Shown in pieces: positions 2 to 10,351 of a stretch of DNA of 24,000 nucleotides. Origin of the DNA: Fidelibacterota bacterium (GTDB lineage Bacteria > Fidelibacterota > Marinisomatia > Marinisomatales > TCS55); NCBI GenBank assembly GCA_018651745.1, contig JABIDL010000030.1, forward strand, positions 3,032 to 27,031. Direction: 5' to 3'. Both the position numbers and the translations under genes were made by a program. Positions within the stretch are counted from its first letter, which is position 1. Each line of letters opens with the position of its first letter. The notes beneath the pieces are model-generated. The model saw only the letters and a list, made by a program, of their open reading frames with translations. It had not been told where the DNA came from and made no database searches.

Positions 2-544
2 GAAACATTGGCACTGTTCGGATTTGGTTTAGATTCTTTTGTGGAAGTGATTTCCGGTATTGGAATATGGCACATGGTTTTGCGGATCCGGAAGAGTGAA
101 GATGAACATCAAGGACATTTTGAGAAAACGGCTCTCAAAATCACCGGATCGGCATTTTATATATTATCCGCAGGATTAATAATTTCATCAATATATAATT
201 TGATAACTGGTGCTCAACCCCAAACTACATTTTGGGGAGTTATCATAGCTGGCTTGTCTCTTGGTGGGATGTGGTGGCTCATCCGGGAAAAATTAAAAGT
301 GGGCAAAGCACTGCAATCGGATGCCATCATTGCCGATGCGAATTGCACCAAAGCTTGTATGCAATTGTCCTTTGTTTTATTGGTTTCCAGTTTGGGCTAT
401 GAATTATTTGGAATCGGAAGCATTGATGCTGTGGGCTCTCTAATTATTGCAGGGTTTGCATTTCGAGAGGGAAAAGAATCTCTTGAAAAAGCAGATGGTA
501 AAGGAGAATGCAGTGATTGTGAACAATCTTCAAAACCAATGTGA
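2..544 (+). CDS. Multi-pass membrane protein resembling short cation-transporter (CDF-like) family; 5' end truncated by the window edge
   Basis: The frame is open from position 2 (gaa aca ttg...), so the TTG at 8 is probably internal. Several hydrophobic helices are present, with an FGFGLDSFVEVISG motif and an acidic/Cys C-terminus (GKGECSDCEQ). TGA stop at 542-544. Family assignment is from motif recall only. Confidence 0.45.
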   Translation, partial: ETLALFGFGLDSFVEVISGIGIWHMVLRIRKSEDEHQGHFEKTALKITGSAFYILSAGLIISSIYNLITGAQPQTTFWGVIIAGLSLGGMWWLIREKLKVGKALQSDAIIADANCTKACMQLSFVLLVSSLGYELFGIGSIDAVGSLIIAGFAFREGKESLEKADGKGECSDCEQSSKPM

Positions 545-603: not shown

Positions 604-1137
604 ATGTTTCTTCCGTCACATATTGCATCAGGATACATTTTGGGGAACGCTTTGAGCTGCAAAAATCCCACTTGGACAGATGGTCCGTTTTTGTCGGTTT
701 TACTCTTTTCTTCCATCCTTCCGGATGTGGATGGAATTTGGTCAAATACCGTGGCGGGGCATCATTCGTTTCTTCATACACCCATTTTTTGGATATTCCT
801 TTTTATAGGAATGACGGGCTTGGGGTCGATTTCAAACATCCGCTGGATGAAACCCGTTTCTCTTGGAATTGTTCTGGGTGCGATGCTGCATCTTTTCACA
901 GATTGGATTACGGCGCGAACGGTTGGGATTCAGTGGTTATATCCGTTTAATATGACCAATTTTGATGTTTATTCTGTTCAGCCCGAAAAAGGACAAATCC
1001 CGGTTTGGGATATGATTCGCGATCCGTATTTTTCGTTTTACATTGAGAACAAAGTATTGCTTTGGTTTGAAATTGGCATGAATGGACTTGCCTTAATCTT
1101 ATTTGGGAAAAATAAATTACAGGGAAATCGAGTATGA
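604..1137 (+). CDS. Membrane-bound metal-dependent hydrolase, YdjM/DUF457-like
   Basis: 177 aa and hydrophobic, with the characteristic His/Asp motifs SH, LPDVD, HHSFLHTP and HLFTDW spaced as in YdjM-type proteins. The stop overlaps the next ATG as ATGA (1134-1137). Confidence 0.7.
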   Translation: MFLPSHIASGYILGNALSCKNPTWTDGPFLSVLLFSSILPDVDGIWSNTVAGHHSFLHTPIFWIFLFIGMTGLGSISNIRWMKPVSLGIVLGAMLHLFTDWITARTVGIQWLYPFNMTNFDVYSVQPEKGQIPVWDMIRDPYFSFYIENKVLLWFEIGMNGLALILFGKNKLQGNRV

Positions 1138-2123
1138 AATCTATTCTGCAAATTCTGACACCGATATTTTTGTCAACTTTGTTGTGGGGTCAATGACCTC
1201 TCTGAACGAATCCAAGCCTCCCGGTCGGGACGGCCAATTCTGGTGTTGGATTAGATAAAGGTGATCTTATCGTGGGGGCGAATATGATGGTTCAAAATAT
1301 CGAGTGGTGGCATAGTGAGTTAATAGAATCCGGTGGAGACCACGAAGGGAATCTGAAATCAAGCTTGGCAGAAGTAAATGCAACCTATGGGATTTCTGAT
1401 AACTGGAACCTGAGTGTGGATGTTATGACGGGAAACAGATCCATGGATTTTTATCCTGACGCGAATATTCATCACCGCGATGAAAACAAAATGGGCATCG
1501 GTGATACGAGAATTACGCTTCGCTATTTGATAGAAAATACAACATTTGGCCCCGGTCAGCGGGTTTTTATTGGAGGCGGATTAGTTATTCCTTCAAAGAA
1601 TTCATTGACTGAAAATCCATTTAAACTTGGGGAATCCGGAGAGACACACACACATTTTGATTTGAGCGAAGGCGTGGTTAAAGCGCATACAGAATTCCAA
1701 TATTTCAGGCGATCAGAAGGATCCATTTTTCCGGGAGGCGTTTTGAAAGTGGAAATACCGTTAGAAACGAATCAATACGGTTTCAAAGCGGGAATCCAAT
1801 TATCCGGTGCGATTCTGGTTTATTTTCACACCCAATCTTTTTGGAGTGGGATTCCATTTTTACATATGCTGGGTCAGTATCGAAACCCAGATATTTGGGA
1901 TGGAGAAGAAGCACCGAATTCAGGGGGAAGTGTACTGCAAATTGGCGGAGGCTTAACCTTTTCGAAGAACGGATATCTATTAACTGGATCGGCTCGTGTA
2001 CCGATATATTTTAATGCAAGTGTGGCAGGCCAAGAAGAAAAAGATGTATCAAATAGAACGGATGTTTGGGGAGGATCCTTAAGTATTAGAAAAACAATTA
2101 ATCTGTTTAAATTTGAGGACTAA
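1134..2123 (+). CDS. Outer-membrane beta-barrel transporter-like protein (Phenol_MetA_deg-like). It is full length only if the in-frame TGA codons at 1194 and 1203 are decoded (candidate Sec-x-x-Sec); otherwise it is a pseudogene or a signal-less fragment at 1272..2123
   Basis: ATG 1134 encodes the signal peptide MKSILQILTPIFLSTLLWGQ in the same frame as ORF 1272..2123. The only interruptions are TGA 1194-1196 and TGA 1203-1205. The downstream part has alternating beta-strand character, a GIGDTRITLRYLI motif and a C-terminal aromatic (LFKFED). The barrel ORF alone lacks any export signal. Confidence 0.5.
1216..1234 (+). promoter_or_regulatory. SECIS-like stem-loop (GCC-U-CCC-[GGUC]-GGG-AC-GGC) downstream of the two in-frame UGA codons
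   Basis: Hand-folded: 1216-1218 pair with 1232-1234, and 1220-1222 pair with 1227-1229, leaving the apical loop GGUC at 1223-1226. The hairpin starts 10 nt after the second UGA. The loop G lies about 20 and 29 nt from the two UGAs. A possible lower stem is UCCAA (1211-1215) with UUGGA (1246-1250). Confidence 0.35.
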
Positions 2124-2127
2124 AACC

Positions 2128-2487
2128 ATGAATATAATGAAAGGAAACAACATGAAAAAATCACTCATTCTAATCGCCGGAGCAGCAATGATTATTGCAG
2201 CATGTGGCGGAGAAAATAAAACAGCAGATGTGGCACTTAGCACAATTCAATGCGGAATGTGCACATCTACAATCGAGAATGCTTTATCTGATGTCAAAGG
2301 TGTAGTAAGTATCAAAATCGATGAAGAAAAGAAAGTTGGGAAAGTTGTGTATCAGGCAGGAGTTGTTGATTTGGCAGCAATTGAAAATGCGATAGCAGCT
2401 GTTGGTTACAATGCCAACGATACCAAAGCCGACCCAAAAGCATATTCCGAACTTGCAATGTGCTGTAAAGTCCCTGGCAAGGAGTAA
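2128..2487 (+). CDS. Heavy-metal-associated (HMA) domain lipoprotein, CopZ/MerP-like periplasmic metal chaperone
   Basis: Signal peptide plus lipobox (LILIAGAAMIIAAC), then an HMA fold signature with CGMC (IQCGMCTSTIENALSDVKGV) and an extra C-terminal Cys pair (AMCCKVPG). ATG 2128 has GAGGA 8 nt upstream. ATG 2152 is an alternative start. The track's TTG at 2113 is unlikely. Confidence 0.8.
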   Translation: MNIMKGNNMKKSLILIAGAAMIIAACGGENKTADVALSTIQCGMCTSTIENALSDVKGVVSIKIDEEKKVGKVVYQAGVVDLAAIENAIAAVGYNANDTKADPKAYSELAMCCKVPGKE

Positions 2488-2523: not shown

Positions 2524-3690
2524 ATGCTAATCCCGTTTTTGTTTACTTTTTTATTTGCAGGACGCTTTACGGATCCACCTGTTGGCGTTGGTAGCCGCTA
2601 CCCCAATATCACCGAAACTGATCGCGGATTTACCCTTTGTTGGTTTGAACCGGTAGGAAAAAAATTCAGCCTAAAAATGTCTGAATTTGACGGAAACTAT
2701 TGGACTAATCCGGTTACAATTACTATGGGCGAGAACTATTTTATAAACTGGGCAGATTTCCCCTCAATTTATTATTTAAATGATAATCGGTTTGCCGCAC
2801 ACTGGCCCCAAAAGAGCGGAACCGGTCCGTATGATTATGATGTGAAAGTTTCGCAGTCATTCGACCGCGGAAAAACATGGACAACCTCTGTGACGCCGCA
2901 CCGCGATAAGAAATCCGGCGAACATGGTTTCGTTTCGTTCTTCACCAATTCCAAAGGTGGCCTTGCGTTGGCTTGGCTGGATGGCCGGAATATGTCCGAT
3001 GGACATGGCGGAGGAGATTACGGAGCTATGAATTTGTTCACAACCACTCTGGATCTGGATGGGAATCTTGGACCCGAAATAATGCTGGATGATAAAGTTT
3101 GTGAATGCTGCCCGACATCGGCGGTTAATACCGAAGATGGTGTATTGGTGGCATACAGAGATCGTTCCGAAACTGAAATCCGCAACATAAATGTGGTAAG
3201 ATTAACCGAATCATCTTGGACAGAACCCGAGCCACTTCACAATGATAATTGGAAAATTTCCGGTTGCCCGGTGAACGGACCGAAGCTTGCGGCTAACAGT
3301 AAAAATATTGCAGCTATATGGTTCACGTCACCCAATGAAACACCACAAGTTCTGTTTTCTTTATCCAAAGATTTGGGGGAATCCTTTAATGATCCTGTAA
3401 GATTAGACAGCGGAATGCCGATTGGCAGGACCGACCTCATTTGGCTAGACGGACGAAAGGTTCTGGCAAGCTGGATGGAATACGGGGAAGACAATACACA
3501 CATTATTTTTAGGACAATATCCATTGATGGGCGGTTAGGGAAACCGTTTATTGCAGCAGAAATTGACGCCGGTAGGGCCAGCGGTTACCCGGTGATTACT
3601 CGTATCGGAAGAAAGATTTTCTTGGCATGGACGAGCAGCGGCGAATCCGGGAAAGTGGAATCGAAATGGGTTCCGGTTTCAAAATTTTGA
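2524..3690 (+). CDS. BNR/Asp-box repeat, sialidase-fold (beta-propeller) protein with Cys cluster
   Basis: Asp-box motifs SQSFDRGKTW and SLSKDLGESF. Repeated W/D-rich propeller-like segments (NWADFPS, LAWLDGR, LIWLDGR, LAWTSSG). Unusual VCECCPTS and SGCPVNGP motifs. Hydrophobic N-terminus. Confidence 0.6.
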   Translation: MLIPFLFTFLFAGRFTDPPVGVGSRYPNITETDRGFTLCWFEPVGKKFSLKMSEFDGNYWTNPVTITMGENYFINWADFPSIYYLNDNRFAAHWPQKSGTGPYDYDVKVSQSFDRGKTWTTSVTPHRDKKSGEHGFVSFFTNSKGGLALAWLDGRNMSDGHGGGDYGAMNLFTTTLDLDGNLGPEIMLDDKVCECCPTSAVNTEDGVLVAYRDRSETEIRNINVVRLTESSWTEPEPLHNDNWKISGCPVNGPKLAANSKNIAAIWFTSPNETPQVLFSLSKDLGESFNDPVRLDSGMPIGRTDLIWLDGRKVLASWMEYGEDNTHIIFRTISIDGRLGKPFIAAEIDAGRASGYPVITRIGRKIFLAWTSSGESGKVESKWVPVSKF

Positions 3691-3765: not shown

Positions 3766-5367
3766 ATGAAGCAACTCATCACAGTCTGGCTCATCCGAAT
3801 CTTAACCGCAACCATTTTCATCGGAGGCGTTTTACCGGTTTTAACTACACCGGTTTCTGCCCAAGAATCCAATAAGAAGAAAAAGAAAAAAAGCCGAAAA
3901 AAACCTTCTAAGAAAAAATCATCTAAGAAGAAAAAGAAATCCTCTAAAAAAAAGAAGCGAGGAAAGGCTAAAAAGAAACGTAAAAAAAGACCCACAAAAA
4001 AGAATAAAGCAAAACGTAAAACCAAAAAATCGAGTAGTTCAAAATCAACCGTGGCAGACCGGTCACGTCCACCTAAGATGAATGTGACAGAATTTGCCGA
4101 TGAGTTATACACCATTACTGAGGCACTGAATGTCAGTTCAGATCAATTATCCCGAGCAACGTCTTATCTTAAAGAGCCGGATCAAAAGCGCCTTGTTAGG
4201 CTGGATTCGAGGGAAGCATTTACGACAACGGACTATGAAAAAGCAGCAGATAATGCACCTCAAAATATCCGCCTTCAAAGACAACTCGGTTTGCATTATG
4301 AATCGGTTCAGGAATTCGAAAAGGCAAAAGATGTGTATTTCCGGCTTTTGACTAAAGAACCCCAGAATTCGGATTATCATTACTTTTTAGGTTCCCTTTA
4401 TGCTAAAGTTGGCGCTATTGGGAAGGCACAGCATTCATTCGAAGAAGCCTTAGATCTCCAACCTGATCATTATCAAACGTTAAATGCGATGGCATCTTTT
4501 TTAGGTTCGCCCCGTGAAAAAAATATGAGCAATGAAGTATTATCTCGATCTGCAGTAAAAAACCCGGATGGTCCGGCTCAGCAAATGACATCCATCCAAA
4601 ATAAATTGAACTCGGGAGAAGCCCAAAAGGCAATTATGTTGGCAAAATCTGCTTCTGAAGAGCATCCTAACCACAGTGGATTTATATTTCTGCAAGGCAA
4701 GGGATATGAAGATCTTGGCGAAATTGATCAATCTAAAGCGTCTTACCAAAAAGCAATCCACATGGATCCAAAAAATAAGGAATCCCATATGGCACTTGCG
4801 AACTTGTACTACAACCAAGGAAAATATGTGTATTCTGCATTGGGTTATAGTGATGTAGTCTATCTCGATCCGTATAATGTTGATGCCCGATACATGCAAG
4901 GGCTCAGTTATTACAACGCATCCGAATGGGGAAGAGCCGCCAATGCTTGGGAAGATCTTTTGCATTATGATCCACAGCATCCGTTGGTCCGCATGTTGTT
5001 GCCCCAAGCATATTATGTATTGGCAGTGGAATACAACCGAATCGGAAAATCGGCACAAGGACGCTCGGCATTTGAAAAAGCAATGAGCATTAATTCTAAC
5101 ACGAGATCTTGGCTTTCGGGTGCGATGCGAACCTTGGGGAAAACGTATCGGGAGCGAGGAATGTATAAAGAATCGCTGGCCGCTTTTCAGGAAGTGATCG
5201 AACTAAAACCAGCCGATTCAAATGCATACCTTGGCATGGGTGTAACCTATTGGAAAATGCAAGAAACTCAACTAGCAAAAGCTGCATGGAATCGCAGTCT
5301 GGAATTAAGCCCGGATGACAATGAAGCAAAGGGTTGGTTGTTCATTGCACATCAAGCTGGTTCTTGA
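3766..5367 (+). CDS. TPR-repeat protein with N-terminal hydrophobic segment and extreme poly-Lys/Arg linker
   Basis: 533 aa. N-terminal MKQLITVWLIRILTATIFIGGVLPVLTTPVSAQ, then a K/R-rich tract at residues 37-88, then multiple 34-aa TPR-like units (e.g. YHYFLGSLYAKVGAIGKAQHSFEEALDLQPDH and AYLGMGVTYWKMQETQLAKAAWNRSLELSPDD). Confidence 0.75.
   Translation: MKQLITVWLIRILTATIFIGGVLPVLTTPVSAQESNKKKKKKSRKKPSKKKSSKKKKKSSKKKKRGKAKKKRKKRPTKKNKAKRKTKKSSSSKSTVADRSRPPKMNVTEFADELYTITEALNVSSDQLSRATSYLKEPDQKRLVRLDSREAFTTTDYEKAADNAPQNIRLQRQLGLHYESVQEFEKAKDVYFRLLTKEPQNSDYHYFLGSLYAKVGAIGKAQHSFEEALDLQPDHYQTLNAMASFLGSPREKNMSNEVLSRSAVKNPDGPAQQMTSIQNKLNSGEAQKAIMLAKSASEEHPNHSGFIFLQGKGYEDLGEIDQSKASYQKAIHMDPKNKESHMALANLYYNQGKYVYSALGYSDVVYLDPYNVDARYMQGLSYYNASEWGRAANAWEDLLHYDPQHPLVRMLLPQAYYVLAVEYNRIGKSAQGRSAFEKAMSINSNTRSWLSGAMRTLGKTYRERGMYKESLAAFQEVIELKPADSNAYLGMGVTYWKMQETQLAKAAWNRSLELSPDDNEAKGWLFIAHQAGS
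3874..4029 (+). repeat. Low-complexity purine-rich coding tract (poly-Lys/Arg with SKKK-like units; several A7-A8 homopolymers)
   Basis: Encodes KKKKKKSRKKPSKKKSSKKKKKSSKKKKRGKAKKKRKKRPTKKNKAKRKTKK, in which 38 of 52 residues are K/R. The DNA is almost pure A/G with runs such as aaaaaaa and aaaaaaaa. Confidence 0.85.
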
Positions 5368-5405: not shown

Positions 5406-6524
5406 ATGAGAATGAAACCCATCTTATGTTTGGTTTCGTTTTCTATTCTTTTCTCATCACATCCTGCCGATGATAAAGTCCATGAAGGCGTTCGAGCTTT
5501 TTATAATTATGAATATGATCAAGCTGTATCGATATTAACTGATGTAAGTTTTGAACATCCTGATCATCCCGGAATTTTTCTTATTTTGCCTGCTGCAAGA
5601 TGGGTGCTGGCGCAGGCGCATAGTAGTGTTGAAGTTTCCTATACCGTATTAGAGCATGACTTAAATGAAGCGTTGTTTATCTATAAAGATCTGATAAAGG
5701 ATAATCCGGACAATCAGGAATATCGTCTTTACTATGGTTCTGCTCTGGGCTTAAAGGCAAGGGTAAATCTTGGGAAAAAGGAATGGGTCAAAACGCTTTC
5801 AAATGCTTACAAAGGCTTCCGCATCATTCAAGATGTGGCGGAGAAAGATTCCTCCCTTGTTGACGCCAATCTCCCAATCGGTATTGTGGAATATTATGCC
5901 GGCATGAGCAATGGACTGATTCAGTTTGCCGCCGGATTGTTTGGGCTGGATGCCTCACGCGAAGTTGGACTCTTGAAAATTCGTAAGGCGGTCGAAGCAG
6001 GTTCTTGGTCATGGACTGAAGCAAGTGCGATTCTTTCTTTTATCTATTTATGGTCTGACAGAAATCCGGACGAGGCTGAAAATTTCAGCCGAAAACTGGT
6101 GGAAACATATCCGCAAAATTTTTATTACCGAATTTTGTTAACCGAAAGTTTAACTCGCAATGGGAAATTGGAAGATGCTAAAAAATCGCTGCTAATTTTG
6201 GATAATTCGATTGGAAGTCTAACGGAAATTCAGCAAAAATGGTTTTATGGATATCTTCAATTCGAATGGGCACTGTATCATTTCTATTCCGAGAATCAGG
6301 AAGTCTCAATGCGCTATGTGAAACAAACCATTTCCTCTTACGGAGCGGAATTGGATATCATTCTGGGCGAAGCGTTTTTATTGAATGGAAAATTACTCGA
6401 CTTAAAAGGAGAGCGAAATGAAGCGGTGTTATCCTACCGGCGATGCAAAGAATTGGATAACATGTCGCAAGCAATGCGTGATGCAAAAGAGTTTCTTAAA
6501 AAACCATTTTCTCTACCGAAGTGA
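5406..6524 (+). CDS. Secreted TPR-like/helical-repeat protein
   Basis: ATG 5406 gives the signal-like N-terminus MRMKPILCLVSFSILFSSHPADD. The track's extension from 5334 overlaps the previous gene. Helical repeat character runs throughout (YNYEYDQAVSIL, YRILLTESLTRNGKLEDAKKSL, GKLLDLKGERNEAVLSYRRCKELD). Confidence 0.6.
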   Translation: MRMKPILCLVSFSILFSSHPADDKVHEGVRAFYNYEYDQAVSILTDVSFEHPDHPGIFLILPAARWVLAQAHSSVEVSYTVLEHDLNEALFIYKDLIKDNPDNQEYRLYYGSALGLKARVNLGKKEWVKTLSNAYKGFRIIQDVAEKDSSLVDANLPIGIVEYYAGMSNGLIQFAAGLFGLDASREVGLLKIRKAVEAGSWSWTEASAILSFIYLWSDRNPDEAENFSRKLVETYPQNFYYRILLTESLTRNGKLEDAKKSLLILDNSIGSLTEIQQKWFYGYLQFEWALYHFYSENQEVSMRYVKQTISSYGAELDIILGEAFLLNGKLLDLKGERNEAVLSYRRCKELDNMSQAMRDAKEFLKKPFSLPK

Positions 6525-8279: not shown

Positions 8280-9821
8280 ATGGTTTCCAAAGTTCTTAGT
8301 AGCGCTGTCCTTGGGATTGATGCCTACATTGTTGAGGTTGAGGCAAACCTTTCCGGTGCTCAGTTACCCAAATTTATAACCGTTGGCCTCCCGGAAGGTG
8401 CCGTAAAGGAAAGCAAAGAACGAGTCACAGCTGCGATTCGCAACAGCGATTTTATTTTACCATATAAACATATTACAATCAACCTTGCTCCGGCGGATAT
8501 TCGCAAAGAAGGATCTGCATTTGATCTTCCGATTGCCGTTGGAATCCTTGCAGCCACCGGTGCGGTAAAACAAAATTTTCTCAACAATTTGCTTTTGTTG
8601 GGTGAACTTGCTTTGGATGGCTCGCTCAGACCAATCAAGGGAGCGCTCCCGATCGCCATTAACGCTGCCAAAAAAGGAATTAAGGGAATCATTCTTCCAA
8701 ACGAAAATGCGCAAGAAGCCGGAATTGTGGACGGTATAAAAGTAGCCGGTGTGGATTCACTGGCAGAAGTGGCGGCTCTGCTAAATGGAAAAATGTCCAT
8801 GGATCCTATCAAAGTAGATAGACAGAAACTCTTTAATGAACAAAAAAATTATGATTTGGATTTTGCCGATGTGAAAGGTCAGGAACATGTAAAGCGTGCA
8901 ATTGAAGTGGCAGCAGCCGGAGGGCATAACGCCATTATGATCGGTCCTCCCGGAAGCGGGAAGACGATGCTGGCAAAACGTCTTCCGACCATTCTTCCGG
9001 ACCTCGTATTGGAAGAAGCACTACAGACTACCAAAATTCATTCCGTTGCCGGATTGCTTCCAGATGGAAAGGGGCTGATTGCTACACGTCCGTACCGTTC
9101 GCCGCATCATACTATTTCGGATGCAGGACTGATTGGCGGCGGAACGGTTCCGAAACCGGGTGAAGTCAGTCTTGCGCACAACGGTGTATTGTTTTTAGAT
9201 GAACTTCCGGAGTTCAAGAAAAATGTTTTGGAGGTCATGCGTCAACCGCTGGAGGATGGTTCTGTTACCATCGCGCGCGCAACAATGTCGCTAAGTTACC
9301 CATCCAATTTTATGTTGGTGGCGGCTATGAATCCATGTCCTTGTGGTTATGCGACAGATCCGAAAAATGAATGCACCTGTAATCCGCAATTGATTCAAAA
9401 ATATATGAGTCGAATTTCAGGTCCACTCATGGATCGAATTGATATTCACATCGAAGTCCCGTCAATCTCATTTGATGAATTATCCGAGAAGGAAAGTGGG
9501 GAAGCATCCAAATTTGTGCAAAAAAGAGTGCAGAATACCCGCAATGTTCAATTAACAAGGTTTGAAGGAAGAGATTCCATTTTTTGCAATGCACAAATGG
9601 AATCCAAAAATATTGCTGATTATTGTAAAATTGACAAAGAAGCATCTGATTTGCTGAAGACAGCCATGGAAAAATTGGGCCTATCAGCTCGAGCGTACGA
9701 TCGGATTTTAAAAGTATCACGGACGATTGCAGATTTAGAATCTTTAAAAGAAATCAGTTCTCAACATGTGAGCGAAGCAATTCAATATCGTAGCCTGGAT
9801 CGTAAGTTATGGCTTCAATGA
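8280..9821 (+). CDS. comM: YifB/ComM family Mg-chelatase-like AAA+ ATPase
   Basis: N-terminal Lon-protease-like domain (GIDAYIVEVEANLS, GLPEGAVKESKERV), Walker A GPPGSGKTMLAKRLP, Walker B VLFLDELPEF, a C-x-C-G...C-x-C zinc-like cluster (NPCPCGY...CTCNP) and a C-terminal ARAYDRILKVSRTIADL...QYRSLDR. 513 aa. Confidence 0.93.
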   Translation: MVSKVLSSAVLGIDAYIVEVEANLSGAQLPKFITVGLPEGAVKESKERVTAAIRNSDFILPYKHITINLAPADIRKEGSAFDLPIAVGILAATGAVKQNFLNNLLLLGELALDGSLRPIKGALPIAINAAKKGIKGIILPNENAQEAGIVDGIKVAGVDSLAEVAALLNGKMSMDPIKVDRQKLFNEQKNYDLDFADVKGQEHVKRAIEVAAAGGHNAIMIGPPGSGKTMLAKRLPTILPDLVLEEALQTTKIHSVAGLLPDGKGLIATRPYRSPHHTISDAGLIGGGTVPKPGEVSLAHNGVLFLDELPEFKKNVLEVMRQPLEDGSVTIARATMSLSYPSNFMLVAAMNPCPCGYATDPKNECTCNPQLIQKYMSRISGPLMDRIDIHIEVPSISFDELSEKESGEASKFVQKRVQNTRNVQLTRFEGRDSIFCNAQMESKNIADYCKIDKEASDLLKTAMEKLGLSARAYDRILKVSRTIADLESLKEISSQHVSEAIQYRSLDRKLWLQ

Positions 9822-10351
9822 AAGGAAAAAGAAAACATATTCGATTAGCTGATTATGATTATTCTCAATCAGGTATTTATTTTGTCACAATTTGCTCTCA
9901 GATACGGGAATGTATTTTTGGTGAAATAACGAATGGAAACATGAAATTAAATCTAATCGGGAATATTGCTTACCGTTGCTGGGAGGGAATCGAAAAGCAT
10001 TATACGTCTGTAAATCTGTTTGATTTTGTAGTGATGCCAAATCATGTGCATGGAATGGTAGGATTGAATTCAACTCAATTCAAAAATCCGGTATTAGGTG
10101 ATATTGTTGGCAAATATAAAGCAGCAGTAACAAGGGAAATAAACAAACGTAGGGGCGAGATATATCGCGCCCCTACAAAGGTTTGGCAAAGAAATTATTA
10201 TGAACACATCATTCGGAACGAAACTGCATTCGAGAGAATTACAGAATACATTCGATCCAATCCATCCAATTGGAAACAGGATAAAGAAAACCGAGATCGA
10301 AACAAATTGAATAATTTTTATGGATGGGTAGATACCTACTGGAAAAATTAA
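9809..10351 (+). CDS. IS200/IS605-type Y1 HUH transposase homologue, RAYT-like (REP-associated tyrosine transposase-like), apparently domesticated and single-gene
   Basis: HUH motif MPNHVHGMV and catalytic Tyr region WQRNYYEHIIRNE, with an N-terminal YDYSQSGIYFVTICS. About 180 aa. Alternative start ATG 9818 forms an ATGA overlap with the comM stop. No room for flanking inverted repeats or REPs. Confidence 0.85.
   Translation: MASMKGKRKHIRLADYDYSQSGIYFVTICSQIRECIFGEITNGNMKLNLIGNIAYRCWEGIEKHYTSVNLFDFVVMPNHVHGMVGLNSTQFKNPVLGDIVGKYKAAVTREINKRRGEIYRAPTKVWQRNYYEHIIRNETAFERITEYIRSNPSNWKQDKENRDRNKLNNFYGWVDTYWKN
10149..10176 (+). repeat. GC-rich REP-like palindrome beginning with GTAG, embedded in the RAYT-like coding sequence
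   Basis: GTAGGGGCG (10149-10157) is the perfect reverse complement of CGCCCCTAC (10168-10176). The stem extends to 11 positions with one A/G mismatch around an ATATAT loop. It encodes RRGEIYRAPT and stands out as GC-rich in an AT-rich gene. Confidence 0.5.

What the first reader, a model, noticed from the sequence alone, without database searches (positions are those of the whole stretch)
1134..2123. Signal peptide and outer-membrane barrel joined only through two in-frame UGA codons (U-P-L-U) with a SECIS-like GGUC hairpin: candidate di-selenocysteine protein
ATG 1134 forms an ATGA overlap with the upstream stop and encodes a textbook signal peptide (MKSILQILTPIFLSTLLWGQ). It is in the same frame as the 283-aa beta-barrel ORF (1134 and 1272 are both 0 mod 3). 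Across 990 nt the only interruptions are TGA 1194-1196 and TGA 1203-1205, giving Q-[UGA]-P-L-[UGA]-T at the predicted mature N-terminus. That is exactly the spacing of a CxxC redox/metal motif. The barrel ORF alone has no export signal, which an outer-membrane protein needs. The stretch between the second UGA and the GTG (TNPSLPVGTANSGVGLDKGDLIV) reads as ordinary protein. Ten nt after the second UGA lies the hairpin GCC-U-CCC-[GGUC]-GGG-AC-GGC (1216-1234). As I recall, GGUC is also the apical loop of the E. coli fdhF SECIS, and the loop G sits about 20 and 29 nt from the two UGAs, inside the spacing range I recall for bacterial SECIS models (roughly 15-40 nt). TGA is a genuine stop elsewhere in the window, so this is not a recoded genome. 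Neutral decay would rarely place two nonsense codons three codons apart at a CxxC-like position while leaving the rest of the frame intact. The flanking genes are Cys-motif metal-handling proteins.
Basis: partly seen in the sequence, partly recalled or inferred. Interest (0 to 1): 0.8.

Follow-up and report, generated by a model that had tools for sequence, protein, structure and literature searches.

The report
Two-selenocysteine outer-membrane barrel protein
The two in-frame UGA codons are almost certainly read as selenocysteine, which makes this gene one member of a widespread, so far unannotated family of outer-membrane barrel proteins that carry a Sec-x-x-Sec (or Cys-x-x-Cys) motif at their mature N-terminus and sit beside mercury- and copper-handling genes.

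Summary
Window 1134-2123 is one reading frame, interrupted only by TGA 1194 and TGA 1203. TGA is otherwise the commonest true stop in the window (14 of 24 ORFs).

The selenoprotein reading is strongly supported.
- Across 101 distinct homologous loci from Marinimicrobia, Myxococcota and metagenomes, the two positions read UxxU (67), CxxU (11) or CxxC (23), and never UxxC. This gives Sec/Cys pairs at both sites.
- A signal peptide lies upstream in every case.
- Every Sec form (78/78) has a hairpin with a G-initial 3-4 nt loop, mostly GGUC, at a fixed distance. Only 1 of 23 Cys forms has one.
- The stem shows compensatory changes and frozen synonymous codons.
- The hairpin meets all four criteria of the published bacterial SECIS model for both UGAs. 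Its loop and spacing copy E. coli fdhF.

AlphaFold and Foldseek give a 12-stranded outer-membrane barrel resembling the COG4313 channel and FapF. No Pfam or NCBIfam model covers it. It is absent from a 2026 list of 119 selenoprotein families, and RefSeq annotates homologues as truncated hypothetical proteins.

Neighbours and fusions are HMA/MerP-like, thioredoxin-like, MerT, MerA/MerR, CopB and multicopper oxidase proteins. They point to soft-metal (Hg/Cu) handling, but that function is inferred.

The Sec machinery of the source genome could not be checked.

The parts
1134..2123 (+). Complete coding sequence of the di-selenocysteine outer-membrane barrel protein: 329 codons including 2 Sec codons, with stop TAA at 2121-2123.
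   Evidence: Single frame with only two TGA interruptions. The same architecture is found in 78 distinct Sec-form loci.
1134..1193 (+). Signal peptide MKSILQILTPIFLSTLLWGQ. The start ATG overlaps the upstream stop (ATGA). The conserved G-Q lies immediately before the first Sec, and cleavage probably falls between G and Q.
   Evidence: A hydrophobic N-terminal segment is present upstream of the motif in all homologues, Sec and Cys forms alike, while its sequence varies. Q at -1 is invariant in 23/23 Marinimicrobia-type sequences. The cleavage site is inferred.
1194..1196 (+). First in-frame UGA (Sec 21); 26 nt lie between it and the SECIS loop.
   Evidence: This position is TGA in 67 distinct loci and TGC/TGT in 34 (the CxxU and CxxC forms).
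1203..1205 (+). Second in-frame UGA (Sec 24); 17 nt lie between it and the SECIS loop, against 18 in E. coli fdhF.
   Evidence: This position is TGA in 78 distinct loci and Cys in 23. CxxU forms exist but UxxC forms never do, so this looks like the primary Sec site.
1216..1234 (+). SECIS-like hairpin GCCUCCC-[GGUC]-GGGA-C-GGC, with the apical loop at 1223-1226. It is encoded by the codons for S-L-P-V-G-T-A.
   Evidence: RNAfold gives -10.9 kcal/mol. The four core pairs form in 28/28 sequences, with compensatory changes at three pairs; the covariation score is 0.247 against 0.083 in shuffles, 0/500 reaching it. Synonymous codons are frozen. The hairpin is present in 78/78 Sec forms and 1/23 Cys forms. 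It meets the bSECIS model criteria quoted in PMC13188914.
1206..1262 (+). Conserved flexible N-terminal tail TNPSLPVGTANSGVGLDKG, lying between the UxxU motif and the first barrel strand.
   Evidence: The [ST]NPxL motif is conserved at protein level in both Sec and Cys forms. The tail has low pLDDT in both models.
1263..2102 (+). 12-stranded beta-barrel domain with invariant His-rich motifs (NIHHRDE, HTHF, APNSGG).
   Evidence: The AF2 model has pLDDT 80 and 12 strands. Foldseek matches FapF (E 1e-9) and the COG4313 channel 4rl8 (TMq 0.69, TMt 0.78). Invariant columns are listed.
604..1137 (+). Upstream YdjM-family membrane protein gene, overlapping the start of the barrel gene.
   Evidence: Pfam PF04307, E 4e-17. 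YdjM also neighbours the barrel in 4 Marinimicrobia-type loci and in L044.
2152..2487 (+). Downstream HMA (MerP/CopZ-like) lipoprotein with a CGMC metal-binding motif; the probable periplasmic partner.
   Evidence: Pfam HMA, E 6e-9. NCBIfam MerP, CopZ and UxxU_metal_bind all hit below cutoff. HMA is the commonest neighbour, in 9 of 143 neighbour ORFs. P0104 is a barrel-HMA fusion.
2524..3690 (+). Downstream BNR_2-like protein with a CECCP motif. It is a conserved operon member of unknown role.
   Evidence: Weak Pfam BNR_2 hit. The same gene order is seen in L001-L004. No NCBIfam model hits it.

Best explanation
Window 1134-2123 is one gene for an exported outer-membrane beta-barrel protein that contains two selenocysteines.

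How it is made.
- Translation starts at ATG 1134, coupled to the upstream ydjM-like gene.
- Both UGA 1194 and UGA 1203 are recoded as Sec by the standard bacterial route: SelB with Sec-tRNA binds one fdhF-like SECIS hairpin (1216-1234, loop GGUC) inside the coding sequence.
- The hairpin is positioned optimally for the second UGA and is still within the accepted range for the first.
- After Sec-translocon export and signal-peptide cleavage (probably G|Q), the mature protein starts Q-U-P-L-U-T-N-P. This flexible tail is attached to a 12-stranded barrel with a conserved His cluster.

Inferred function. The N-terminal diselenol (a dithiol in the Cys forms) binds or relays a thiophilic metal such as Hg(II) or Cu(I) at the outer membrane. 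It would exchange the metal with the neighbouring periplasmic HMA or thioredoxin-like protein. The system may act as an outer-membrane entry or capture step for mer- and cop-type systems.

Shown: the conserved recoding signature, the Sec/Cys pairs, the SECIS, the fold and the gene context. Inferred: actual Sec insertion, the cleavage site, the topology of the tail, and the metal function.
For: Recoding.
- Both TGAs and the flanking peptide are conserved in every Marinimicrobia-type locus, from 100% down to 42% identity.
- Across 101 distinct N-terminal regions there are 67 UxxU, 11 CxxU, 23 CxxC and 0 UxxC.
- The Myxococcota branch has 58 full-length CxxC clusters and 61 N-terminally truncated gene calls among the top 120.
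- One gene caller translated the TGAs as W (P0074: WGQ-W-AM-W-SNPSLPVG), which confirms the continuity of the frame.

SECIS.
- The hairpin is present in 78/78 Sec forms and 1/23 Cys forms, Fisher p = 2.5e-21.
- Cys forms L046 and L047 keep the peptide LPVG but use codons GTG GGC, which break the stem.
- There are compensatory changes: CUCCC-GGUC-GGGAG versus UUGCC-AGUU-GGCAA versus CCUCCA-GGC-UGGAGG.
- The hairpin codons CTC CCG GTC GGG are fixed in 18-21 of 23 sequences, whereas invariant flanking Gly codons use all four synonyms. The joint probability under the window's own codon usage is 5e-4.
- All four bSECIS model criteria are met for both UGAs. The loop and spacing match fdhF.

Sec trait in the lineage. 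Canonical selenoprotein genes lie on sister contigs: DsrE-like T-U-GTC, DsbA-like Q-U-PYC and Prx DTPG-U. SelD is reported in SAR406 single-cell genomes (PMC5029168).

Fold. A secretin and a type IV pilus cluster in the window show that the organism has an outer membrane.

Function.
- Neighbour counts are HMA 9, ArsR 5, MerT 4 and CopZ-zf 4.
- L039 carries MerR, then MerA (TIGR02053, 551 bits against a cutoff of 454), then a Trx-like gene, then the barrel.
- L045 has a mer cluster plus [HMA+Trx]-barrel, and L044 has [HMA+Trx]-barrel-YdjM.
- L042 carries the barrel with HMA-rhodanese, a multicopper oxidase and CopB.
- Fusions exist: barrel+HMA (P0104) and barrel+thioredoxin (P0095, P0096).
- Several orthologues have His-rich C-terminal tails.
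Against: - No selA, selB, selC or selD was found in the 24-kb window or in about 426 kb of related loci. The source genome itself could not be searched.
- Single-sequence folding energy is not better than shuffles.
- The Sec-versus-Cys hairpin contrast is not corrected for phylogeny.
- Some FCB-type Cys forms keep a shifted hairpin without the G[G/U] loop (L040 CACU-GCAA-AGUG; L045 UUCC-CCCG-GGAA).
- Decoding two UGAs 9 nt apart from one SECIS has not been shown experimentally in any system. It is only proposed for other UxxU proteins (PMC13582414).
- The metal function is contextual only. The soil and Myxococcota branch shows no mer or cop neighbours apart from the metal-binding/thioredoxin lipoprotein.
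- The CxxC tail is disordered in the models, so its position (periplasm or lumen plug) is unknown.
Confidence: 0.86

Rival explanations
1. The UGAs are recoded in a SECIS-dependent way, but one or both insert cysteine rather than selenocysteine, through a tRNA-ReC (SelC*-like) system.
For: PMC13582414 reports that tRNA-ReC-like tRNAs are enriched in genomes with UXXU-type hydrogenases. It warns that one or both UGAs may be read as Cys. Sequence data alone cannot tell Sec from Cys at a SECIS-directed UGA.
Against: Canonical single-Sec selenoprotein genes (Prx, DsbA-like, DsrE-like) lie on sister contigs, which suggests a normal Sec system. If Cys were the product, a plain UGC codon would be simpler, and CxxC forms do exist without the hairpin. 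No tRNA-ReC data are available for these genomes.
Confidence: 0.07
2. There are two separate units: a short upstream ORF or leader (1134-1196), and a barrel gene starting at GTG 1272 or ATG 1284. The conserved hairpin would be a regulatory RNA element such as an attenuator or a translational control.
For: All automatic gene calls start downstream of the UGAs. The hairpin lies in what those annotations treat as a 5' leader.
Against: - A barrel starting at 1272 would have no signal peptide, although its fold is an outer-membrane barrel.
- The stretch 1206-1271 is conserved as protein with synonymous variation.
- Cys-form homologues are continuous ORFs running signal peptide, CxxC, [ST]NPxL, barrel.
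- The hairpin disappears exactly when TGA is replaced by TGC.
Confidence: 0.02
3. The gene is a pseudogene: neutral decay introduced two nonsense codons.
For: There are two in-frame stops within 12 nt. In the window, the only ORF found by the mechanical ORF listing lacks an export signal.
Against: The same two TGAs occur at the same codons in 67 distinct loci across at least two phyla and many environments. There are no other stops or frameshifts, and protein-level conservation is strong on both sides.
Confidence: 0.01
4. The organism uses an alternative genetic code in which TGA means Trp or Gly.
For: One database protein (P0074) was translated with W at both TGAs.
Against: TGA ends 14 of 24 long ORFs in the window, and none of these ORFs has an internal TGA. 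Homologues have Cys, not Trp or Gly, at both positions.
Confidence: 0.005

Closest known systems
E. coli fdhF selenocysteine recoding (UGA plus an in-frame SECIS hairpin read by SelB)
   Same: The in-frame UGA is followed by a coding-region hairpin with a GGUC apical loop. The loop starts 17 nt after UGA2 here and 18 nt after the UGA in fdhF. The hairpin meets the consensus bSECIS criteria.
   Different: Two UGAs 9 nt apart share one hairpin. The upper stem sequence is unrelated (CUCCC/GGGAG against GCA/UGC). The protein is an exported outer-membrane barrel, not a cytoplasmic molybdoenzyme.
Known UxxU bacterial selenoproteins: the HMA-type metal-binding (seleno)protein NF041115, Prx-like UxxU, FmdB-family UxxU, and the UXXU Group 4 [NiFeSe] hydrogenases
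   Same: They share the Sec-x-x-Sec motif, presumed decoding by a single downstream SECIS (PMC13582414), and a link to heavy-metal or mercury biology for NF041115 and the MerT-type selenoproteins (PMC13188914).
   Different: The protein family and fold are different. No NCBIfam or Pfam model, including NF041115, hits the barrel. The motif sits at the extreme mature N-terminus of an outer-membrane barrel.
COG4313 / PF13557 (Phenol_MetA_deg) outer-membrane channels (Pput2725, PDB 4rl8) and FapF (PDB 5o65/5o67)
   Same: All are 12-stranded barrels. Against 4rl8, TMq is 0.69 and TMt is 0.78; against FapF, E is 1e-9 to 4e-11. Two Myxococcota homologues carry a precomputed PF13557 hit. Those structures are known, from my own knowledge, to have an N-terminal segment that plugs the barrel.
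   Different: Sequence identity is about 10-15%. Pfam does not hit the window protein, and a PDB profile search finds nothing. The N-terminal [C/U]xx[C/U]-[ST]NPxL motif and the His motifs (NIHHRDE, HxHF) are specific to this family.
Other outer-membrane selenoproteins listed in 2026: the TonB-dependent receptor of FCYXU type (NF049945) and the GSU2204/MtrB-PioB-like barrel (NF041027)
   Same: They are outer-membrane beta-barrel proteins predicted to contain Sec (PMC13188914 Table 1).
   Different: They have a single Sec, different and much larger barrel families, and different motifs. Their NCBIfam models do not hit this protein.
mer operon periplasmic and inner-membrane Hg(II) relay (MerP CxxC to MerT CC to MerA)
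   Same: A vicinal dithiol-type motif sits on an exported protein encoded next to HMA/MerP-like, MerT-HMA, MerA and MerR genes.
   Different: To my knowledge, no outer-membrane component is part of the canonical mer system. This protein is not homologous to any Mer protein. Some members sit in copper loci instead, and soil members have no mer context.

Membership tests
Bacterial selenoprotein gene (UGA-Sec recoding) | An in-frame UGA conserved among orthologues, with protein-level conservation on both sides. | tested here: met
   Both TGAs are conserved in 67 distinct loci (UxxU) and the second in 78. A signal peptide lies upstream and [ST]NPxLPVG plus the barrel lie downstream.
Bacterial selenoprotein gene (UGA-Sec recoding) | Cys-containing homologues aligned at the UGA position (a Sec/Cys pair). 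| tested here: met
   Of the distinct DNA regions, 23 are CxxC and 11 are CxxU. Full-length CxxC proteins include P0102, P0104, P0105, P0117, P0126, P0151 and P0173, plus 58 Myxococcota clusters.
Bacterial selenoprotein gene (UGA-Sec recoding) | A bSECIS hairpin as defined in PMC13188914: 3-9 nt apical loop, upper stem of at least 4 bp, G in the first two loop positions, 16-37 nt from the UGA, and MFE of -7.5 kcal/mol or lower. | tested here: met
   The loop is GGUC (4 nt), the upper stem is 4 bp with 3 more after a bulge, the spacing is 17 nt (UGA2) and 26 nt (UGA1), and the MFE is -10.9 kcal/mol. The hairpin is present in 78/78 Sec forms and shows covariation.
Bacterial selenoprotein gene (UGA-Sec recoding) | The Sec machinery (selA, selB, selC/tRNA-Sec, selD) is encoded in the same genome. 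| not testable with these tools
   It is absent from the window and from about 426 kb of related loci, and whole genomes cannot be queried. Proxies: other canonical selenoprotein genes on sister contigs, and SelD in SAR406 single-cell genomes (PMC5029168).
Bacterial selenoprotein gene (UGA-Sec recoding) | Selenium demonstrably incorporated (75Se labelling or mass spectrometry). | not testable with these tools
   This needs an experiment. Cultivable Archangium species carry the CxxU form.
COG4313 / PF13557 outer-membrane channel family | A 12-stranded outer-membrane beta-barrel fold. | tested here: met
   The AF2 models have pLDDT 80 and 87. Foldseek against 4rl8 gives TMt 0.78 and 0.69, E 8e-8 and 7.5e-11.
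COG4313 / PF13557 outer-membrane channel family | A match to the Pfam PF13557 profile. | tested here: not met
   No Pfam family hits the window protein at E <= 0.1, nor nine relatives. Only 2 of the 120 listed Myxococcota clusters (of 416 hits at E <= 1e-10) carry a precomputed PF13557 hit. The relationship is at most a distant superfamily one.
HMA-type UxxU metal-binding (seleno)protein NF041115 | An HMA (ferredoxin-like) domain carrying the UxxU/CxxC motif. | tested here: not met
   NCBIfam gives no hit for the barrel protein. NF041115 matches only the neighbouring HMA gene and the fused HMA domain of P0104, both below cutoff.
mer (mercury resistance) operon component | Encoded in an operon with MerR/MerA or MerT/MerP. 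| tested here: inconclusive
   This holds for L039 (MerR-MerA, above the TIGR02053 cutoff), L045, L003/L010 and L005. In the window only an HMA lipoprotein is adjacent. L042 is a copper locus. Soil members lack mer genes.

The most novel reading that the evidence does not exclude
This is a large, unrecognised family: 254 clusters at 50% identity in a profile search, and more than 400 clusters in the Myxococcota branch alone. Its members are outer-membrane channels whose mature N-terminus is a diselenol (UxxU), a selenol-thiol (CxxU) or a dithiol (CxxC). Together with a dedicated periplasmic HMA/thioredoxin-like partner, the barrel would form a previously missing outer-membrane step of mercury and copper trafficking. 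In abundant ocean Marinimicrobia, selenium would be used to capture Hg(II) at the cell surface. The family would also be a natural case of one fdhF-like SECIS decoding two UGA codons 9 nt apart. The complete absence of UxxC forms would mark an evolutionary order of CxxC, then CxxU, then UxxU, set by SECIS spacing.
Probability: 0.4. Interest if true: 0.8.

Novelty: new member of a known kind. Interest (0 to 1): 0.68.

Why it matters
- It adds a new and abundant family to the prokaryotic selenoproteome, which stood at 119 families in a 2026 inventory. This family is systematically mis-annotated as a truncated hypothetical protein because gene callers stop at the UGAs.
- It is a rare double-Sec (UxxU) protein, and an outer-membrane barrel.
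- It ties selenium use to mercury and copper handling in Marinimicrobia, a lineage relevant to ocean mercury cycling, and in Myxococcota.
- It offers a clean natural system for asking how one SECIS serves two closely spaced UGAs. The system includes cultivable Archangium species and an fdhF-like hairpin that E. coli SelB might recognise.
- The [metal-binding/thioredoxin]-barrel gene pair suggests an undescribed outer-membrane step in soft-metal trafficking.

Tried and rejected
- Rfam gathering scan of the window: nothing found.
- Pfam and NCBIfam on the barrel, covering the window protein, the Archangium and Bradymonadia forms, and nine distant relatives: no family.
- PDB sequence and profile searches: nothing relevant.
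- PLSDB plasmids by tblastn with a Sec-form and a Cys-form query: no match.
- Search for Sec machinery: ARAGORN on the window and 31 loci found no tRNA-Sec. A phmmer search with E. coli SelD, recalled from memory, against six-frame ORFs of 426 kb found nothing. This is uninformative given the small sample.
- Single-sequence folding z-scores were not significant, so I did not use stability as evidence.
- My first register-fixed, contiguous-stem measure under-counted two things: the bulged Marinimicrobia hairpins, and the triloop variants shifted by one register. It also picked spurious alternatives. I replaced it with a criterion tied to loop position and the loop G.
- The claim that the hairpin is absent from all Cys forms had to be softened. 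L040 and L045 keep shifted hairpins that lack the G[G/U] loop.
- The Bacteroidetes Q-rule (pyroglutamate N-terminus) was considered as an explanation for the invariant Gln before Sec1. PMC5837995 states that the rule does not hold for the whole FCB group, so it remains speculation.
- Scans for further in-frame-TGA genes in the window found none that were convincing.
Full report
**Observation.**
- ATG 1134 overlaps the TGA stop of the upstream ORF 604-1137.
- The frame 1134-2123 is open except for TGA 1194-1196 and TGA 1203-1205.
- It reads MKSILQILTPIFLSTLLWGQ-*-PL-*-TNPSLPVGTANSGVGLDKGDLIV..., followed by the 283-codon ORF that mechanical ORF finding reports (1272-2123).
- TGA is the commonest genuine stop in the window (14 of 24 long ORFs), and none of those ORFs contains an internal TGA. 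The genetic code is therefore standard.
- The hairpin lies at 1216-1234. RNAfold draws it as GCCUCCC[GGUC]GGGA-C-GGC at -10.9 kcal/mol. That stability is not better than dinucleotide shuffles (z = -0.85 and +0.33).

**Homologues share the interruption.** A protein search found 26 clusters at 43-100% identity, and none covered the first 45 or so residues. I read the DNA upstream of these genes in assemblies and in 30 loci from a scan of one genome per species.
- Every Marinimicrobia-type locus has, in frame, a variable hydrophobic signal peptide followed by (G)Q-TGA-x-x-TGA-(T/S/A)-N-P-S-L-P-V-G. This holds down to 42-45% protein identity.
- There are no other stops or frameshifts.
- The gene callers had simply restarted after the stops. 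Many database entries begin MPVG..., which is the Leu or Met codon inside the hairpin.
- One entry was translated with Trp at both TGAs (P0074, WGQ-W-AM-W-SNPSLPVG).

**Sec/Cys pairs occur at both positions.** Distant relatives (26-28% identity) in Myxococcota show the same N-terminal motif. Some read C-A-G-C (Bradymonadia, Polyangiaceae), some C-A-G-TGA (four Archangium genomes), and one TGA-A-G-TGA. A profile search of 1.8 billion cluster representatives found 254 members, including full-length CxxC proteins. A search from the Archangium protein found 416 clusters. Of the best 120, 58 are full-length CxxC forms and 61 are N-terminally truncated calls. After a metagenome scan, pooling all loci gave 101 distinct N-terminal regions:

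| Form | Distinct regions |
|---|---|
| UxxU | 67 |
| CxxU | 11 |
| CxxC | 23 |
| UxxC | 0 |

**The hairpin behaves as a SECIS.** Several independent lines agree.
- Every Sec form (78/78) has a hairpin of at least 4 contiguous base pairs. [quoted passage not shown] The loop starts 29-31 nt after the first codon. Only 1 of 23 Cys forms has such a hairpin (Fisher p = 2.5e-21, not corrected for phylogeny).
- There is a natural control. Cys forms L046 and L047 keep the peptide LPVG but encode it as CTC CC(C/G) GTG GGC, which destroys the stem.
- Among 23 Marinimicrobia-type sequences, invariant Gly codons outside the hairpin use all four synonyms. Inside it, the codons CTC CCG GTC GGG are fixed in 18-21 of 23 sequences. 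The two deviants change together (TTG/ATG CCA GTT GGC) so that pairing is kept. The joint probability of the fixed codons under the window's own codon usage is 5e-4.
- Pair counts on 28 distinct sequences show the four core pairs forming in 28/28. Three pairs have compensatory changes (C-G/G-C; C-G/A-U/G-C; C-G/U-A). The covariation score is 0.247 against 0.083 in shuffles (0/500), and it is lower at all slid registers.
- The element meets all four criteria of the published bacterial SECIS model (PMC13188914) for both UGAs: the loop starts 17 nt after UGA2 and 26 nt after UGA1.
- Its loop and spacing mirror E. coli fdhF. I checked my recalled fdhF sequence against 5426 E. coli genomes. It matched 5413 at >=99% identity (the three rows listed are 100%), with the GGUC loop 18 nt after the UGA.
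- CxxU forms exist but UxxC forms never do. This fits a SECIS positioned for the second codon, with the first UGA acquired later.

Caveat: two FCB-type Cys forms retain shifted hairpins without the G[G/U] loop. The same has been described for Cys-type relatives of other selenoproteins (PMC13582414).

**Sec trait.** The window contains no sel genes and no tRNA. Its other genes are IspG, a ComM-like gene, an IS200-like gene, a type IV pilus cluster and a secretin. About 426 kb of related loci contain no sel genes either, and the source genome cannot be queried. The proxies are as follows.
- Sister contigs that carry this gene also carry textbook selenoprotein genes with in-frame TGA at the catalytic Cys position: a DsrE/TusD-like protein (T-U-GTC), a DsbA/Rcas_1661-like lipoprotein (Q-U-PYC) and a BCP/PrxQ peroxiredoxin (DTPG-U).
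- SAR406 single-cell genomes are reported to encode SelD (PMC5029168).

**The protein.**
- AlphaFold2 on the post-UGA sequence gives a 12-stranded barrel (pLDDT 80). A full-length Cys-form relative gives pLDDT 87, with the CxxC tail disordered.
- The best Foldseek matches are FapF and the COG4313 channel 4rl8 (TMq 0.69, TMt 0.78).
- Two Myxococcota members carry a PF13557 hit, but the window protein matches no Pfam or NCBIfam model and no PDB sequence.
- Invariant motifs include [ST]NPxL after the second Sec/Cys, NIHHRDE, HxHF and APNSGG. Several orthologues end in His-rich tails.

**Context and function (inferred).** In the window the gene is flanked by a YdjM-family gene upstream. Downstream lie an HMA lipoprotein with CGMC and a BNR_2-like protein with CECCP.
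- Across 20 Marinimicrobia-type loci, the commonest neighbours are HMA (9), ArsR (5), MerT (4) and the CopZ zinc finger (4).
- One subfamily sits directly after MerR, MerA and a small thioredoxin. The MerA scores 551 bits against the TIGR02053 cutoff of 454.
- A Cys form sits after a full mer cluster and an HMA+thioredoxin fusion gene.
- Another Cys form has the order [HMA+Trx]-barrel-YdjM.
- Another Sec subfamily lies in a copper locus with a multicopper oxidase and CopB.
- In the soil and Myxococcota branch, the only constant neighbour is an upstream lipoprotein with two C-x-EH-x-VP-x3-C-x2-C motifs plus a thioredoxin domain (WCAPC). In a marine UPGU subfamily the neighbour is HMA+thioredoxin.
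- Fusions exist: barrel+HMA and barrel+thioredoxin.

The conserved unit is therefore a metal-binding/thioredoxin-like periplasmic protein together with this barrel. I infer that the N-terminal diselenol or dithiol exchanges a thiophilic metal, or reducing equivalents, with that partner at the outer membrane. Hg(II) and Cu(I) are the likeliest substrates. The evidence for this is contextual only.

**Rival explanations.**
- Pseudogene, alternative genetic code, and "leader ORF plus separate barrel gene" are each contradicted by the comparative data (see the rivals section).
- SECIS-dependent insertion of Cys through tRNA-ReC cannot be excluded from sequence.

**Novelty.**
- The family is absent from the 119-family inventory of May 2026 (PMC13188914) and from the 2022 Haft preprint.
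- It has no NCBIfam model in the June 2026 release.
- RefSeq and GenBank annotate homologues as truncated "hypothetical protein".
- The mechanism is the standard bacterial one, and UxxU motifs are known elsewhere.

I therefore rate it a new member of a known kind. It has unusual features: double Sec, an outer-membrane barrel, and a link to mer and cop loci.

Noticed in passing
window 2524-3690 (+): A 388-aa exported protein with a weak BNR_2 match and a CECCPT motif. It is conserved directly downstream of the barrel-HMA pair in several Marinimicrobia loci, and no NCBIfam model hits it. It may be a further member of the metal module.
   Followed up: partly
window 3766-5367 (+): A TPR protein whose N-terminal region after the signal peptide is an extreme Lys/Ser/Arg-rich low-complexity tract (KKKKKKSRKKPSKKKSSKKKKKSSKKKKRGKAKKKRKKRPTKKNKAKRKTKK). 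The opposite strand gives a spurious 118-aa ORF rich in Phe and Leu.
   Followed up: no
window 8-544 (+): A cation-efflux (CDF) family ORF at the window edge, ending in a Cys-rich tail (GKGECSDCEQSSKPM). In sister locus L007/L001 the equivalent position holds a DUF4396 gene, and in L040 DUF4396 is fused to HMA.
   Followed up: partly
window 9809-10351 (+): An IS200-like Y1 transposase ORF (Pfam Y1_Tnp, E 6e-8) lying between a ComM-like gene and an FMN reductase gene.
   Followed up: no
L003/L004 nt 1877, L010 nt 3982; L017 nt 12807; L021 nt 11323: Three other selenoprotein genes with in-frame TGA lie on contigs that carry the barrel gene: DsrE/TusD-like (YT-U-GTCC), a DsbA/Rcas_1661-like lipoprotein (DYQ-U-PYC) and a BCP/PrxQ peroxiredoxin (ADTPG-U-IKEAC). 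The gene callers truncated or missed them.
   Followed up: partly
L040 nt ~360-420 and L045 nt ~5100-5150: Cys-form (CPAC) relatives retain a hairpin at nearly the same place but with non-SECIS loops (CACU-GCAA-AGUG; UUCC-CCCG-GGAA). These may be relics or precursors of the SECIS.
   Followed up: partly
L024 (CAXRJK010000058.1) versus L023 (DEAI01000008.1): A contig labelled as a Winogradskyella sp. MAG carries a barrel gene and flanks nearly identical to those of Marinimicrobia UBA2986. This suggests a binning or labelling error in that MAG.
   Followed up: no
L063, L065 and L029, upstream of the barrel gene: A Myxococcota lipoprotein with a duplicated C-x-EH-x-(V/I)P-x3-C-x2-C motif fused to a thioredoxin domain (WCAPC). 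Pfam recognises only the thioredoxin part. It appears to be an uncharacterised metal-binding module.
   Followed up: partly
L026, L025 and L035, nt 5994-6009 of each: A second small hairpin (GGGGU-GAAGCA-ACCCC) encloses the second Cys/Sec codon in high-GC relatives. It occurs in Cys forms as well as Sec forms, so it is probably a by-product of the G-x-C-S-N-P codons and not a recoding signal.
   Followed up: partly
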